A DNA stretch of 4,043 bases from a virus (taxonomy: Duplodnaviria > Heunggongvirae > Uroviricota > Caudoviricetes): the IMG/VR virus record IMGVR_UViG_3300022758_000415, one strand, 5' to 3'. A program made the translations under genes and the position numbers. Position 1 is the stretch's first letter. Every line of letters begins with the position of its first letter. The notes below the pieces were generated by a model. That model saw only the letters and a program-made list of their open reading frames with translations, made no database searches and was not told where the DNA came from. Below are positions 1 to 4,043 of the stretch, piece after piece.

Positions 1-149
1 CGACTTCCGTACCAGTCCGCAAAATCCCCTGAATATCAAGCCTTCCGTAGATTTACAGTTCGTCATGGTTCGCGTCAGATCGTTGACAGCCGCACTCCAT
101 GACGGGTAAAAAAGTGGATAAAATAATTTTACCCACCGGATTTTTACCC

Positions 150-1308
150 ATGCTCACCGTTAAGCAGATTGAAGCAGCAAAGCCGAAAGAAAAACCATAC
201 CGCCTTCTCGATGGTAATGGCCTGTACCTTTATGTCCCTGTGTCAGGGAAAAAGGTATGGCAGCTTCGCTACAAGATTGACGGTAAGGAGAAAATCCTGA
301 CCGTCGGAAAATATCCGCTTATGACTTTGCAGGAGGCAAGGGATAAAGCATGGACTGCGAGGAAAGACATCTCGGTTGGCATCGATCCGGTAAAGGCGAA
401 AAAGGCTTCGTCTAACAACAATTCCTTTAGTGCGATTTACAAGGAATGGTACGAGCACAAGAAGCAAGTCTGGTCAGTAGGCTATGCAACTGAACTTGCC
501 AAAATGTTTGATGACGACATTTTACCTATCATCGGCAGCCTTGAAATTCAGGATATTGAGCCGATGCAACTTCTGGAAGTAATCCGCAGATTTGAAGATC
601 GCGGTGCAATGGAGCGAGCCAACAAAGCACGCAGAAGATGCGGCGAGGTTTTCCGTTACGCTATTGTCACCGGAAGGGCTAAATATAACCCGGCACCTGA
701 CCTTGCTGACGCCATGAAGGGATACCGCAAGAAGAACTTCCCGTTTCTTCCTGCAGACCAGATCCCTGCATTCAACAAAGCACTGGCAACATTTTCAGGA
801 AGTATCGTATCGCTCATTGCGACCAAAGTTTTACGCTACACAGCCCTAAGAACGAAAGAGCTTCGTTCCATGCAATGGAAGAACGTCGATTTTGAAAACA
901 GGATTATCACTATCGACGCCAGTGTGATGAAGGGACGCAAGATTCATGTTGTCCCGATGTCGGACCAGGTGGTTGAACTTCTCACTACGCTAAGCTCAAT
1001 CACCAAACCAGTATCAGAGTTTGATTTTTGCCGGGCGCAACGATAAGAAGAAGCCAATCTGCGAGAACGCGGTACTGCTTGTGATCAAACAAATCGGCTA
1101 TGAAGGTCTGGAAAGCGGTCACGGATTCAGGCATGAATTCAGCACGATTATGAACGAGCACGAATGGCCTGCTGATGCTATTGAAGTACAACTGGCACAT
1201 GCCAACGGCGGATCTGTACGCGGAATTTACAACCATGCTCAGTATCTCGATAAGCGCAGAGAAATGATGCAGTGGTGGGCAGACTGGCTTGATGAAAAGG
1301 TGGAGTGA
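150..1308 (+). pseudogene. intS: P4-family tyrosine integrase (IntS-like), reading frame broken by a 1-nt indel around the T5 run at 1025-1029; would be intact if that run is really T4
   Basis: Seen: ORF 99-1046 translates to an N-terminal domain (MLTVKQIEAAKPKEKPYRLLDGNGLYLYV...WQLRYKIDGKE) resembling the P4 integrase N-terminus. ORF 1021-1308, in the +1 frame, carries the catalytic region (GHGFRHEF, LAH, VRGIYNHAQY, MMQWWADWLD). The span 150-1308 is 1159 nt, not a multiple of 3. Deleting one T at 1025-1029 gives a continuous ...PVSEFDFAGRNDKKKP... Start assigned to ATG 150 (MLTVKQ) rather than ATG 99 because homology begins there; no strong Shine-Dalgarno at either. The symbol intS is by analogy to the int-gtrA-gtrB arrangement I recall in E. 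coli K-12 CPS-53, not from a search. Confidence 0.85.
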
Positions 1309-1396
1309 ACCACCTTAACTATCGAATGACACAAATCCTTGCAATCCAGTGCAAAGCTTTGTGTACCAGAGTTTTTCTTCATCAACTACCGCAAGT

Positions 1397-1406
1397 ATCG
1401 ATCGAT
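1397..1406. repeat. Perfect 10-bp palindrome ATCGATCGAT containing the only Dam GATC site in the int-gtrA intergenic region; regulatory role unproven
   Basis: Seen: ATCGATCGAT at 1397-1406 is self-complementary and is immediately followed by TTGAGA (1406-1411), a -35-like hexamer about 50 nt upstream of the gtrA ATG. No convincing -10 at canonical spacing. Confidence 0.25.
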
Positions 1407-1457
1407 TGAGACTTGGATGATAGACTTCATGCCTTTCAGAACTCATTGATTAAATAA

Positions 1458-1820
1458 ATGTTAAAGCTATTTGCAAAGTACACCTCGATTGGTGTGCTGA
1501 ACACACTTATACACTGGGTGGTTTTTGGTGTATGTATCTATGCCGCGCATACCAATCAGGCTCTGGCAAACTTCGCAGGTTTCGTTGTGGCTGTGAGTTT
1601 TAGCTTCTTCGCGAATGCAAAATTCACATTCAAAGCATCGACTACAACGATGCGCTACATGTTATTTGTCGGGTTCATGGGAACACTGAGTGCAACTGTT
1701 GGATGGGCTGCTGATAGATGTTCACTTCCTCCAATTATCACTCTCGTCACCTTTTCCGCCATCAGCCTGGTGTGCGGTTTCGTCTATTCAAAGTTCATTG
1801 TCTTTAGGGATGCGAAATGA
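1458..1820 (+). CDS. gtrA: GtrA, small 4-helix membrane protein of the O-antigen glucosylation system (flippase for undecaprenyl-phosphate glucose)
   Basis: Seen: 120-aa hydrophobic protein ([25 protein letters not shown]...[10 protein letters not shown]) matching my recollection of the highly conserved GtrA/YfdG family. Stop TGA 1818-1820 overlaps the gtrB ATG 1817-1819 (ATGA). Sits directly upstream of a GT2 gtrB. Weak Shine-Dalgarno. Confidence 0.9.
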
Positions 1821-2716
1821 AGATATCTCTTGTAGTTCCTGTCTTCAATGAAGAAGAAGCGATACCAATTTTTTATAAAACGGTACGTGAATTCGAAGAG
1901 TTGAAGCCATATGAAGTGGAAATTGTTTTCATAAATGACGGAAGCAAAGACGCTACGGAGTCAATTATTAATGCTCTGGCTGTTTCTGATCCGCTAGTTG
2001 TTCCGCTGTCATTTACACGCAACTTTGGTAAAGAACCAGCATTGTTTGCAGGGTTAGACCATGCAACTGGCGATGCCGTGATTCCAATTGATGTTGACCT
2101 GCAAGACCCGATTGAGGTCATTCCTCATCTTATTGAAAAGTGGCAGGCAGGTGCTGATATGGTGCTGGCAAAGCGCTCTGACAGATCAACTGATGGTAGG
2201 TTAAAGCGTAAAACTGCTGAGTGGTTTTATAAACTTCACAACAAAATTAGTAATCCGCAGATTGAAGAGAACGTTGGTGACTTCCGTCTTATGTCACGAG
2301 AGATGGTAGAAAATATCAAACTACTGCCAGAGCGTAACCTGTTTATGAAAGGCGTTTTATCTTGGGTTGGCGGTAAGACGGATGTTGTTGAATACATCCG
2401 TGCTGAACGCGTTGCCGGAAGCACAAAGTTCAATGGCTGGAAGCTCTGGAACCTGGCGCTTGAGGGGATTACAAGTTTCTCGACCTTCCCCTTGCGCGTG
2501 TGGACTTACATCGGTCTACTTGTTGCGGGACTCTCGTTCCTTTACGGGGTGTGGATGATTTTCGACACATTGGTGTTCGGTAATGCTGTCCGTGGTTATC
2601 CATCGCTATTGGTTTCAATTCTTTTCCTGGGGGGAATTCAGTTGATAGGTATTGGTGTGCTTGGGGAATACATTGGCAGAATATATGTCGAAGTAAATCA
2701 AGACCAAGATATATAA
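1817..2716 (+). CDS. gtrB: GtrB, GT2-family bactoprenol glucosyltransferase; C-terminus as sequenced is probably frameshifted, authentic stop predicted at 2737-2739
   Basis: Seen: GT2 N-terminus [17 protein letters not shown], DxD-type motif IDVDLQDP, two C-terminal hydrophobic helices, and LGEYIGRIY as in ArnC/GtrB. RBS AGGGA about 6 nt upstream of the ATG. The annotated frame ends ...EVNQDQDI, while the +1 frame from about 2696 reads [14 protein letters not shown], containing the RPRY motif conserved at ArnC/GtrB C-termini. Confidence 0.9.
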
Positions 2717-2731
2717 TTAAGGGGTCTAAAG

Positions 2732-3138
2732 ATGTTTAAATTAACGCGATATGAAATGCCAGCGATACTTATAGTCGCTTGCTTCTTCCTTCCATTCTTT
2801 TATATGCCTCCTTTTGTGGATGATGTAGCAAGATATTCATACGGATATATCGGGCTAGCTTCTCAAGGTCGATTTCTTACCGAGTTGTATTACATCCTTT
2901 TGAATTCATCAGGAAGTTGATCTCGCCAGATGTTTATCAACTGAACCTTGTTGTTTCATTTGTTATCATGATAGTAGCCTGCAATTACTTTGCTGAATCT
3001 GTGTTTGGCAAGCAATGGATTGCAAAAACAATCACGATATGTGTTTTAATTTGTTCTCCATTTTATATTGAAAACATGTCATACCACATTGATGTTATTG
3101 GAATGTCGGCATCGTTTTCTTTGGCTATGCTGGAGTAG
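2732..3138 (+). pseudogene. N-terminal remnant (about 134 codons after correcting one frameshift) of a serotype-specific GT-C glucosyltransferase (gtr type gene); frameshifted and truncated
   Basis: Seen: occupies the third position of the gtr operon, with RBS AAGGGG upstream of ATG 2732. Hydrophobic N-terminus followed by PFVDDVARYSYG, which resembles the D[DE]xxRY first periplasmic loop motif of GT-C enzymes such as ArnT. ORFs 2732-2920 and 2917-3138 join if the T4 run at 2898-2901 is T5 (...ELYYILFEFIRKLISPDVYQ...). The frame ends at TAG 3136-3138, far short of the 400-500 aa expected for this family. Markedly AT-richer than its neighbours by eye. Confidence 0.55.
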
Positions 3139-3283
3139 CTGTTGCGGTATCGCAGTAATGACGAGTGTCAACAAACTTATCCATGCCATCGATATCAAGT
3201 ACGCAAAACCATGTGTGATTCGGCATTTCAACAGATGGTATTTGTTGCCCACGTCGACGTTTATCAATAAGACATACAGTCAT
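3125..3283 (-). CDS. Short 52-codon ORF translationally coupled to the upstream hypothetical gene; possibly the 5' remnant of a truncated gene
   Basis: Seen: ATG (complement of 3281-3283) overlaps the TGA stop of the 3826-3280 gene as ATGA. Translation is MTVCLIDKRRRGQQIPSVEMPNHTWFCVLDIDGMDKFVDTRHYCDTATATPA, ending at TAG (complement of 3125-3127). It was not in the supplied ORF track, presumably because it is short. It ends within about 14 nt of the end of the gtr-type remnant. Confidence 0.25.
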   Translation of the reverse strand: MTVCLIDKRRRGQQIPSVEMPNHTWFCVLDIDGMDKFVDTRHYCDTATATPA

Positions 3284-3826
3284 GGTTCCACCTTCTCTAT
3301 TTGCTTAAGACCGTCTCTCACTGCATTAAGTACGCGTTCCAGATACTGGTATTTCGGGTTTGGTACCGTTGGCCAGTCGGCATACCACGGATCATCACCA
3401 AAGAGATTCAGCAGTTTGTTACCGACGCCGAAACAACAGCAGCTTTCTTTTACGTCATCGGCGTTTTCCGCCTCGTCCCACATTTCGCGAGCCTGTACCG
3501 CGTCGATTTCTTTCTCTCTTCGTAACTTTATGATTTCTGACTTCACGAAAAGCAGATTTGCATCGTTGTCATCGTCGACCGTGCTTAGCAGTTGAGGGTC
3601 GAAAATTGTCGATTAGATAGTCGTTGCTAACTCGCTTAATGAACGTCTGCACATCATCACCGCCCATAGCAAACCAAGCCGCAGTCCACGCCTTTCCGTA
3701 GCAGGTGATGGTGATTCTTCCCTTACCAGGTTCGTAGTTTTCAATCATCACTCGAACCGGATCTAGTCGCTCTGCACCGGTTATAACGAATGACAACACA
3801 TCAATCTTTTCAACCGTTACACTCAC
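3280..3826 (-). CDS. Hypothetical acidic protein of about 180 aa, function unknown; interrupted as sequenced by a 1-nt indel at the A4 run 3602-3605
   Basis: Seen: GTG start at 3826-3824 preceded by a strong Shine-Dalgarno AAGGAGG (complement of 3834-3840) with a 7-nt spacer. ORFs 3826-3569 and 3546-3280 on the - strand join into one protein (...SNDYLIDNF/DPQLLSTVDDDNDANLLF...) if one base is removed from the homopolymer. Central acidic stretch, CCC triplet and a PWYADWPTVPNPKYQYL C-terminal region. I do not recognise the family. Confidence 0.6.
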
Positions 3827-3866
3827 TGGTTCGCCTCCTTTGCGAAGCTGGTCGGCGACTCGTTAA

Positions 3867-3894
3867 GTGATATGTAGCAATCTCCAAATGTTAA
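3867..3894 (-). promoter_or_regulatory. Candidate sigma70 promoter for the - strand hypothetical gene (-35 TTAACA, 16-nt spacer, -10 TATCAC)
   Basis: Seen: on the - strand, TTAACA (complement of 3889-3894) and TATCAC (complement of 3867-3872) separated by 16 nt, about 40 nt upstream of the GTG start. Hexamer match only, so weak. Confidence 0.2.
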
Positions 3895-4043
3895 CGAACC
3901 GCTCGACTGCATATGCTCCATAGGCCATCTCCACGCCCTGCGCCCGTACCTTCAGCCAAGAAAGCGTCGGTGGCTGTGGTTTCCGATATCGTTAATTTCA
4001 GGAAGAATCTCTTCCCATGTAGCGATATCGCCATTCAAATGCC

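What the first reader, a model, noticed from the sequence alone, without database searches (positions are those of the whole stretch)
3125..3283. Convergent truncated ORFs mark a probable deletion or recombination junction
The + strand gtr-type remnant stops at 3138 after only about 134 codons. A - strand 52-codon ORF stops at 3125 with no extension in any frame. The two ends overlap by about 14 nt. Composition also changes from the AT-rich gtr-type remnant to more balanced sequence to the right. This pattern is what a deletion or illegitimate recombination leaves when it removes the 3' part of the gtr-type gene and the distal part of a - strand gene. Alternatively the 52-codon ORF is a complete small protein.
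Basis: inference. Interest (0 to 1): 0.5.

Follow-up and report, generated by a model that had tools for sequence, protein, structure and literature searches.

The report
Inverted breakpoint inside one P22-like phage
Two truncated phage genes do meet at this spot, but the join links two parts of one P22-like phage genome head-to-head rather than marking a deletion, and in this error-laden 4-kb sequence it is slightly more likely a sequencing or amplification chimera than a real, ordinary inversion.

Summary
A gtrC-type remnant on the + strand stops at 3138. A 52-codon ORF on the - strand stops at 3125. They overlap by 14 nt, and GC rises from about 0.35 to about 0.47 across the site.

Both ORFs are truncated genes. 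The left one is codons 1-134 of a 473-aa GtrC-type glucosyltransferase. The right one is residues 1-52 of a 99-aa DUF7739 protein. The crossover is the dinucleotide GG at 3132-3133, at the end of a 14-of-19 imperfect microhomology (3115-3133). Each ORF takes its stop codon from the other partner's sequence.

The deletion reading fails. One 39.6-kb P22-like phage contig (IMG/VR 3300022758_000220) carries both flanks with 0 substitutions in 4,033 nt. There they lie on the same strand, 5,845 nt apart. So the window joins gtrC to the reverse complement of DUF7739, a head-to-head (inversion-type) joint.

Against that contig the window has 10 one-base indels and no substitutions, most of them near its right end. 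It is therefore low-quality sequence, and its frameshifts are probably errors. An inverted orientation, a distance under 10 kb and short complementarity are the typical signature of displacement-amplification chimeras. In-vivo strand switching leaves the same signature. I lean towards artefact (about 0.5) over a genuine inversion (about 0.38). Either way it is ordinary and of low interest.

The parts
1..5 (.). Five terminal bases (CGACT) that match neither the phage (attP side) nor the chromosomal (attL side) reference, both of which read TCCCA
6..149 (+). Region upstream of the integrase gene, just right of the argW-type att core. It is identical in the phage (L013) and the chromosomal prophage (L010), so it cannot say whether the source was integrated. 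There is a 1-nt insertion at 108 (A5 to A6).
150..1308 (+). IntS-type tyrosine integrase gene. It is split in the window by a 1-nt insertion at 1024 (ORFs 99..1046 and 1021..1308). It is intact (385 aa) in the references.
1458..1820 (+). gtrA (120 aa, GtrA_DPMS_TM), intact
1817..2739 (+). gtrB (native 307 aa, Glycos_transf_2). A 1-nt deletion at 2694/2695 (A4 to A3) changes the last codons, so the window ORF stops at 2716 (299 aa).
2732..3133 (+). 5' 403 nt (codons 1-134 of 473) of a GtrC-type serotype-specific glucosyltransferase gene (Pfam Glucos_trans_II; PHROG GtrC-like). There is a 1-nt deletion at 2913/2914. Low GC (about 0.35).
3115..3133 (.). Imperfect microhomology patch between the two parents. 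TTTTCTTTGGCTATGCTGG aligns with TTTTCTTTGCTTTCGCCGG, 14 of 19 matching. The crossover is within the GG at 3132-3133.
   Evidence: 54 of 2,000,000 random position pairs reach 14/19
3136..3138 (+). TAG that ends the gtrC remnant. It is supplied by the antisense strand of the DUF7739 gene, so it was created by the joint.
3125..3127 (-). TAG (CTA on the + strand) that ends the 52-aa ORF. It is supplied by the antisense strand of gtrC, so it was created by the joint.
3132..3283 (-). 5' 152 nt (residues 1-50, with residues 51-52 preserved by synonymous chance) of a 99-aa DUF7739 / phrog_1239 early-region gene. The C-terminal half is absent.
3280..3826 (-). phiTE_072-family gene (native 181 aa; phrog_3451). 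A 1-nt insertion at 3602 splits it in the window into the 88-aa and 85-aa ORFs.
3823..4043 (-). 3' part of a 144-aa Eae-like early gene (phrog_614), cut by the window end. It carries five 1-nt indels (3832, 3857/8, 3923, 3949, 3983).

Best explanation
The site is a head-to-head novel joint between two places in one P22-like, serotype-converting phage genome.

Shown:
- The window equals the phage contig L013 read forwards from the int gene through gtrA and gtrB to nucleotide 403 of gtrC. It then continues as the same genome read backwards, from nucleotide 152 of the DUF7739 gene through the phiTE_072-family gene into the Eae-like gene.
- In the intact genome these two places are 5,845 nt apart on the same strand.
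- The join lies at a GG dinucleotide, at the 3' end of a 14-of-19 complementary patch.
- The 14-nt overlap, both truncated ORFs and both stop codons follow directly from this joint.

Inferred mechanism: a growing DNA strand copying the gtrC sense strand ended at ...TTTTCTTTGGCTATGCTGG-3'. It re-annealed to the partly complementary stretch on the DUF7739 sense strand and was extended there. That is strand or template switching.

Inferred origin: the joint was most probably made in the tube or in the read, as a displacement-amplification-type or library chimera carried in a low-coverage contig, and not in the cell. The same 4 kb carries 10 one-base indels and no substitutions against its source genome. 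The joint also has the typical form of such chimeras.

The confidence of 0.5 is for the whole statement, including the technical origin. For the structural part alone (an inverted joint within one phage genome, not a deletion) my confidence is about 0.9.
For: Structure:
- L013 matches window 6-3133 on its + strand (13412-16539) and window 3132-4043 on its - strand (10694-9787). There are 0 substitutions in 3,126 + 907 nt.
- Two further references, L019 and NCTC11121, also have the flanks on the same strand. The gene order in L013 is Eae-like, phiTE_072, DUF7739, dATP/dGTP pyrophosphohydrolase-DUF551, PerC, xis-like, int, gtrA, gtrB, gtrC, then a convergent tailspike.
- The microhomology is 14/19. 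Only 54 of 2,000,000 random pairs reach that level.

Technical origin:
- There are 10 one-base indels (7 insertions, 3 deletions, mostly run-length changes) against 0 substitutions. Five of them fall in the last 210 nt, and the first 5 nt are unmatched.
- The whole source is only 4,043 nt long.
- The junction 22-mer or 40-mer is absent from GTDB representative genomes, IMG/VR and JGI metagenomes. No complete E. coli genome, plasmid or phage record spans it.
- Lasken and Stockwell 2007 (PMC1855051) studied multiple-displacement-amplification chimeras. They found 85% inverted, mostly joining segments under 10 kb apart, and 93.5% of the inverted ones under 10 kb apart had at least 2 nt of complementarity, up to 21 nt.
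- An assembler mis-join is unlikely, because the exact overlap is only 2 nt.
Against: - Nothing in the sequence itself separates an in-vitro strand switch from an in-vivo one.
- I do not know how the source DNA was prepared or sequenced.
- Poor base quality does not prove that the joint is false.
- A phage with this 5.8-kb inversion would lose only two accessory genes (gtrC and DUF7739), so by inference it could be viable. That makes a genuine variant plausible.
- The 5.8-kb distance applies only to the phage (vegetative or circular) gene order. If the template was an integrated prophage, the two sites are about 34 kb apart, which fits the amplification-chimera pattern less well.
Confidence: 0.5

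Rival explanations
1. This is a genuine in-vivo inversion, produced by illegitimate recombination or replication template switching at the short imperfect inverted repeat. In phage DNA it would flip the 5.8-kb block that runs from the DUF7739 3' half through xis, attP, int, gtrA and gtrB to the 5' part of gtrC. In a prophage integrated at argW it would flip the roughly 34-kb interior. Either way it splits gtrC and the DUF7739 gene without losing DNA. The window shows one of the two inversion joints.
For: The same structural evidence applies: inverted flanks, microhomology, and 0 substitutions, which implies a recent event. Only accessory genes are broken, so the rearranged phage or prophage could persist. 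Prophage rearrangement and decay are common (established knowledge).
Against: The joint is found in no other sequence searched. The carrier is a 4-kb sequence with an indel-only error pattern and ragged ends. In such a sequence a single chimeric molecule can set the consensus. The reciprocal joint cannot be examined.
Confidence: 0.38
2. This is the first reader's model: a simple deletion inside one prophage, or between neighbouring elements, removed everything between a + strand gtrC and a convergent - strand gene. It would leave a cryptic remnant like CPS-53 at argW in E. coli K-12.
For: Epsilon15-like prophages at guaA (DFL.5, IMT16316) and phage EC.W1-9 carry the trio of Eae-like, phiTE_072 and DUF7739 genes downstream of their replication genes. 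That is the late-gene direction, which in an argW P22-like prophage would be convergent with gtrC. A mosaic phage with that layout could give the window by a deletion of about 25 kb.
Against: Those epsilon15-like copies are only about 96-97% identical and diverge in the third gene. The P22-like genome L013 is identical to both flanks and has them on the same strand. No genome with the required convergent layout next to int-gtrABC was found. A deletion between argW and a guaA prophage would span about 160 kb of chromosome containing essential genes (from knowledge of the K-12 map, not tested here).
Confidence: 0.07
3. The 52-codon ORF is a complete small protein, and the gtr-type ORF is a naturally short gene. 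On this reading there is no breakpoint.
For: Both ORFs have start and stop codons.
Against: The 52 aa align to residues 1-52 of 99-aa proteins and to profile positions 1-52 of 98. phrog_1239 covers 1-99 in the intact protein. The intact gtrC is 473 aa. DNA homology to each parent stops abruptly at 3132/3133. There is no terminator. The only exact database match to the 52-aa product is a gene call cut off by a contig end.
Confidence: 0.01

Closest known systems
P22-like (Lederbergvirus-type) serotype-converting phages with an IntS integrase and a gtrABC module, such as IMG/VR UViG 3300022758_000220, Escherichia phage HF4s and the argW prophage of E. coli NCTC11121
   Same: The window is this module. 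The order int, gtrA, gtrB, gtrC is the same, with 0 substitutions against the IMG/VR contig, 91% identity to HF4s and 95-98% to NCTC11121. The early-region genes Eae-like, phiTE_072 and DUF7739 come from the same genome.
   Different: In the intact genomes gtrC is 473 aa and is followed by a convergent tailspike gene. The DUF7739 gene lies upstream of xis and int on the same strand. In the window gtrC stops after 134 codons and is joined to the reverse complement of the DUF7739 gene.
Chimeras of multiple displacement amplification (Lasken and Stockwell 2007, PMC1855051)
   Same: The second segment is inverted. The two segments are under 10 kb apart in the template (5,845 nt in phage order). 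There is short complementarity at the joint (2 nt exact within a 14/19 patch). The sequence also shows indel-type errors.
   Different: Whether the source DNA was amplified is unknown. If the template was an integrated prophage, the segments are about 34 kb apart.
Cryptic prophage remnants at argW, such as CPS-53/KpLE1 of E. coli K-12 (intS-yfdG-yfdH-yfdI; recalled from knowledge, not tested here)
   Same: Both have an IntS integrase followed by gtrA/gtrB-type genes (yfdG, yfdH), and both show prophage genes interrupted by rearrangement.
   Different: Those remnants are deletion products fixed in a lineage and show substitutional divergence. Here the flanks are inverted relative to each other and show no substitutions against an intact phage.
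Epsilon15-like prophages at guaA (E. coli DFL.5, IMT16316) and phage EC.W1-9
   Same: They carry the same three-gene block (Eae-like, phiTE_072-family, DUF7739) at about 96-97% identity.
   Different: In them the block lies downstream of the replication genes. They have a different integrase and no gtr genes. They are not the source of the window's right flank, because L013 and L005 match it with 0 substitutions.

Membership tests
GtrC-type serotype-specific glucosyltransferase (Pfam PF14264 Glucos_trans_II; PHROG 4829) | Full-length polytopic membrane protein of about 400-500 aa that matches the family profile above threshold | tested here: not met
   The intact homologue (473 aa) scores 76.5-77.8 bits against a cut-off of 30, with a PHROG E-value of 9.8e-50. 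The two window pieces score 15.5 and 17.7 bits and cover profile positions 4-40 and 48-110 of 317. This is a 134-codon fragment, not a functional member.
GtrC-type serotype-specific glucosyltransferase (Pfam PF14264 Glucos_trans_II; PHROG 4829) | Third gene of a gtrA-gtrB-gtrC operon next to a phage integrase | tested here: met
   The order int, gtrA, gtrB, gtrC remnant is seen in the window and in the references.
DUF7739 (Pfam PF24881; phrog_1239) | Protein of about 96-99 aa covering the whole profile | tested here: not met
   The 52-aa ORF scores 37.6 bits (cut-off 27) but covers only profile positions 1-52 of 98. Intact proteins cover 1-92 of 98. It is a truncated member.
Simple deletion junction in a prophage | The two flanks are collinear and in the same relative orientation in the intact parent as in the rearranged sequence | tested here: not met
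   In L013, L019 and NCTC11121 the right flank has the opposite relative orientation to that in the window. In L013 both flanks lie on one strand, 5,845 nt apart.
Inversion-type (head-to-head) strand-switch joint or amplification chimera | The second segment is inverted relative to the parent genome | tested here: met
Inversion-type (head-to-head) strand-switch joint or amplification chimera | Short complementarity at the joint (2-21 nt in PMC1855051) | tested here: met
   GG is the exact overlap, and 14/19 positions match over 3115-3133. Only 54 of 2,000,000 random pairs do as well.
Inversion-type (head-to-head) strand-switch joint or amplification chimera | Segments under 10 kb apart on the template molecule | tested here: inconclusive
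   The distance is 5,845 nt in phage order. It is about 34 kb if the template was an integrated prophage. The window begins to the right of the att core and cannot tell which applies.
Inversion-type (head-to-head) strand-switch joint or amplification chimera | The joint is present only in amplified or library molecules and not in native DNA | not testable with these tools
   Neither the reads nor the library method of the source is available.
Genuine inversion | A reciprocal second joint exists in the same molecule | not testable with these tools
   The source is only 4,043 nt long, and the junction is absent from every collection searched.

The most novel reading that the evidence does not exclude
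The joint is a genuine, very recent inversion in a P22-like serotype-converting phage or prophage, made by template switching at a 19-nt imperfect inverted repeat. It would flip the int-xis-attP-gtrAB block relative to the rest of the genome. It would abolish GtrC-dependent O-antigen modification and uncouple int and xis from early-left (PL) transcription. That would be a natural example of how a serotype-converting module is switched off and a prophage altered without any loss of DNA.
Probability: 0.35. Interest if true: 0.2.

Novelty: already known. Interest (0 to 1): 0.1.

Why it matters
It matters little for biology. If the joint is real, it is one more microhomology-mediated rearrangement that inactivates an accessory O-antigen-modification gene in a temperate phage.

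Its practical value is as a caution. The window is a low-quality 4-kb sequence. Its apparent pseudogenes (int, gtrB, gtrC, the phiTE_072-family gene and the Eae-like gene) and its convergent truncated ORFs should not be read as prophage decay. They are best explained by indel errors plus one inverted joint. A deletion model would have inferred the loss of about 25 kb of late genes, and nothing supports that loss.

Tried and rejected
1. My first working model was an internal deletion of about 25 kb in an argW prophage, running from gtrC to a nin-region gene. It rested on the DFL.5 locus, where a tRNA-Arg lies near the DUF7739 block. I rejected it for two reasons. That tRNA-Arg is phage-borne inside an epsilon15-like prophage at guaA. 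The true parent, L013, has both flanks on one strand.

2. I looked for the junction elsewhere. The 40-mer and 22-mer gave no match in GTDB representative genomes. The 22-mer gave no match in IMG/VR or JGI metagenomes. No complete E. coli genome, plasmid or phage record spans it. The source organism and sample remain unknown.

3. Exact-protein look-ups of the frameshifted gtrB (299 aa) and of the 88-aa ORF found nothing. That fits these products being error-derived.

4. The Logan contig L005 ends 4 nt from the crossover, which looked like independent support for a break there. I rejected this. Its last bases are the native DUF7739 sequence. An exact-match look-up with a 52-aa query can only return a gene call cut at that codon, so this is selection bias.

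5. I considered an assembler mis-join at a repeat. The exact shared sequence is 2 nt, and the window holds no relevant repeats, so I rejected it.

6. I scanned for a terminator or promoter that could make the 52-aa ORF a stand-alone gene. There is none at the junction.

Full report
**What is in the window**

The window, which is the whole 4,043-nt source, carries the following on the + strand:
- an IntS-type integrase gene (150-1308)
- gtrA (1458-1820)
- gtrB (1817 to about 2739)
- the start of a gtrC-type gene (from 2732)

On the - strand it carries:
- a 52-codon ORF (3125-3283)
- two ORFs of 88 and 85 codons (3280-3546 and 3569-3826)
- a partial ORF that runs off the right end

**Checking the observation**

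The - strand ORF ends at 3125, the + strand ORF ends at 3138, and they overlap by 14 nt. GC rises from 0.335-0.38 (2601-3200) to 0.435-0.51 (3101-4000).

One correction applies. The gtr-type remnant is not one ORF in the window as given. It is split at 2913/2914 into pieces of 62 and 73 codons.

**Identity of the two truncated genes**

The left flank, up to 3133, matches the 5' end of an intact 1,422-nt (473-aa) gene. That gene follows gtrA and gtrB in the argW prophage of E. coli NCTC11121 at 98.2% identity. The left flank matches two NCBI assemblies and an IMG/VR phage contig with no substitutions. The intact protein belongs to Pfam Glucos_trans_II (76.5-77.8 bits, cut-off 30) and to the PHROG called GtrC-like O-antigen conversion translocase.

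The 52-aa ORF is 52/52 identical to residues 1-52 of a 99-aa DUF7739 protein. It covers profile positions 1-52 of 98. So both ORFs are fragments, and the alternative of a complete small protein is refuted. No terminator-like site lies at the junction.

**The breakpoint**

An ungapped three-way comparison fixes the breakpoint. The gtrC parent is identical to the window through 3133, and the DUF7739 parent is identical from 3132. The crossover is therefore the GG at 3132-3133.

Immediately to its left the two parents share an imperfect patch of 14 matches in 19 positions (3115-3133). Only 54 of 2,000,000 random pairs of positions from the parent genome reach that level.

Each stop codon comes from the partner. 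The TAG at 3136-3138 lies in antisense DUF7739 sequence. The TAG on the - strand at 3125-3127 lies in antisense gtrC sequence. Residues 51-52 of the small ORF stay Pro-Ala only because CCAGCA and CCGGCG are synonymous.

**Why it is not a deletion**

I first assumed an internal prophage deletion. The DUF7739 block sits near a tRNA-Arg in E. coli DFL.5 and lies in the late-gene orientation there. That tRNA turned out to be phage-borne, inside an epsilon15-like prophage inserted next to guaA. Those copies are also only about 96-97% identical to the window.

A search of IMG/VR with the phiTE_072-family protein found a 39.6-kb P22-like phage contig that holds both flanks (L013, IMGVR_UViG_3300022758_000220):
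- Window 6-3133 equals L013 13412-16539 on the + strand.
- Window 3132-4043 equals L013 10694-9787 on the - strand.
- There are 0 substitutions in 3,126 + 907 aligned nt.

The gene order in L013 runs on one strand:
1. HNH endonuclease
2. Eae-like gene (144 aa)
3. phiTE_072-family gene
4. DUF7739
5. dATP/dGTP pyrophosphohydrolase-DUF551
6. PerC-like gene
7. xis-like gene
8. int
9. gtrA
10. gtrB
11. gtrC

A convergent P22-type tailspike gene follows.

Two other references that hold relatives of both flanks, L019 and NCTC11121, show the same same-strand arrangement. The window therefore joins gtrC nucleotide 403 to the reverse complement of DUF7739 nucleotide 152. These two points are 5,845 nt apart on the same strand of the phage genome. 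In an integrated prophage they would be about 34 kb apart, because attP lies between them. No simple deletion can produce this. It needs an inversion, a fold-back or a chimeric molecule.

**Quality of the sequence**

Against L013 the window has no substitutions but 10 one-base indels:
- Seven insertions, at 108, 1024, 3602, 3832, 3923, 3949 and 3983.
- Three deletions, at 2694/5, 2913/4 and 3857/8.

Most are changes in the length of a base run, and five lie in the last 210 nt. The first five bases match no reference.

Real divergence or pseudogene decay would bring substitutions as well. This is the pattern of low-coverage, indel-prone sequencing. The frameshifts in int, gtrB, gtrC, the phiTE_072-family gene and the Eae-like gene are therefore most likely errors, not decay. 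Fittingly, the frameshifted products are unknown to the protein index, while the intact gtrA product is common.

**How the joint was made**

The anatomy is that of strand switching. A 3' end of sequence ...TTTTCTTTGGCTATGCTGG re-anneals to the partly complementary stretch on the DUF7739 sense strand and is extended.

The origin of the joint is inferred, not shown. Chimeras of multiple displacement amplification have exactly this form. In that study 85% were inverted and most joined segments under 10 kb apart. Of those nearby inverted chimeras, 93.5% showed at least 2 nt of complementarity, up to 21 nt (PMC1855051). Ligation-based nanopore libraries also produce inverted chimeras (PMC13141652 abstract).

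The joint occurs nowhere else that I could search:
- GTDB representative genomes
- IMG/VR
- JGI metagenomes
- 5,426 complete E. coli genomes, PLSDB plasmids and GenBank phages

An assembler mis-join is unlikely because only 2 nt are shared exactly, and the window has no relevant repeats.

In-vivo template switching leaves the same signature. The inversion would break only two accessory genes, so a genuine variant is plausible. My estimates are:

| Reading | Probability |
|---|---|
| Technical chimera | about 0.5 |
| Genuine inversion | about 0.38 |
| Simple deletion in an unobserved mosaic phage | about 0.07 |
| Complete small genes, no breakpoint | about 0.01 |

**Comparison with what is known, and verdict**

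The genes are ordinary members, or fragments, of known families in a known kind of phage: a P22-like phage with IntS and gtrABC. The joint is a known kind of event, whether it arose in the cell or in the tube.

Interest is low.

Noticed in passing
window 108, 1024, 2694/5, 2913/4, 3602, 3832, 3857/8, 3923, 3949, 3983: There are ten one-base indels and zero substitutions against an otherwise identical phage contig (L013). They create every apparent frameshift in the window (int, the gtrB 3' end, gtrC, the phiTE_072-family gene, the Eae-like gene). They crowd towards the right end, which looks like sequencing error rather than pseudogenisation.
   Followed up: yes
window 1-5: The first five bases (CGACT) differ from both the phage and the chromosomal references (TCCCA). 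After them identity is perfect. They may be an adaptor or vector remnant, or a ragged read end.
   Followed up: partly
window 6-149; L010 about 8480-8550; L013 about 13345-13411: The chromosomal (argW attL) and phage (attP) references become identical at CTGCAGGGGACACCA, the 3' end of tRNA-Arg, which lies about 33 nt left of the first base of the window. The window lies wholly on the phage side of the att core, so it cannot show whether the source was integrated.
   Followed up: partly
L001 5870-7187; L008 19870-21187; L006 19851-21168: The three-gene block (Eae-like, phiTE_072-family, DUF7739) sits in the early-left region of P22-like phages. It also occurs at about 96-97% identity downstream of the replication genes in epsilon15-like prophages at guaA and in phage EC.W1-9. 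This is a clear case of a module shared between unrelated phage architectures.
   Followed up: partly
L008 14091-14167 (also L001 91-167): The epsilon15-like prophages carry their own tRNA-Arg gene between the portal and terminase genes. It is easily mistaken for the chromosomal argW attachment site.
   Followed up: yes
L011 and L012, 9791-12697: In two other assemblies the same gtrA-gtrB-gtrC-tailspike module is nearly identical to the window from position 1248 onwards. It lies next to a PBP5-type carboxypeptidase gene and eut/pdu-like microcompartment genes. No IntS gene is called upstream. This is a different insertion context for the same module.
   Followed up: no
L005 (Logan ERR4320050 contig 19346), 139-435: In this contig an Anti-RecBCD (Abc2) gene lies directly upstream of the Eae-like gene. 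In L013 an HNH endonuclease gene occupies that position. This is local mosaicism just beyond the window's right end.
   Followed up: no
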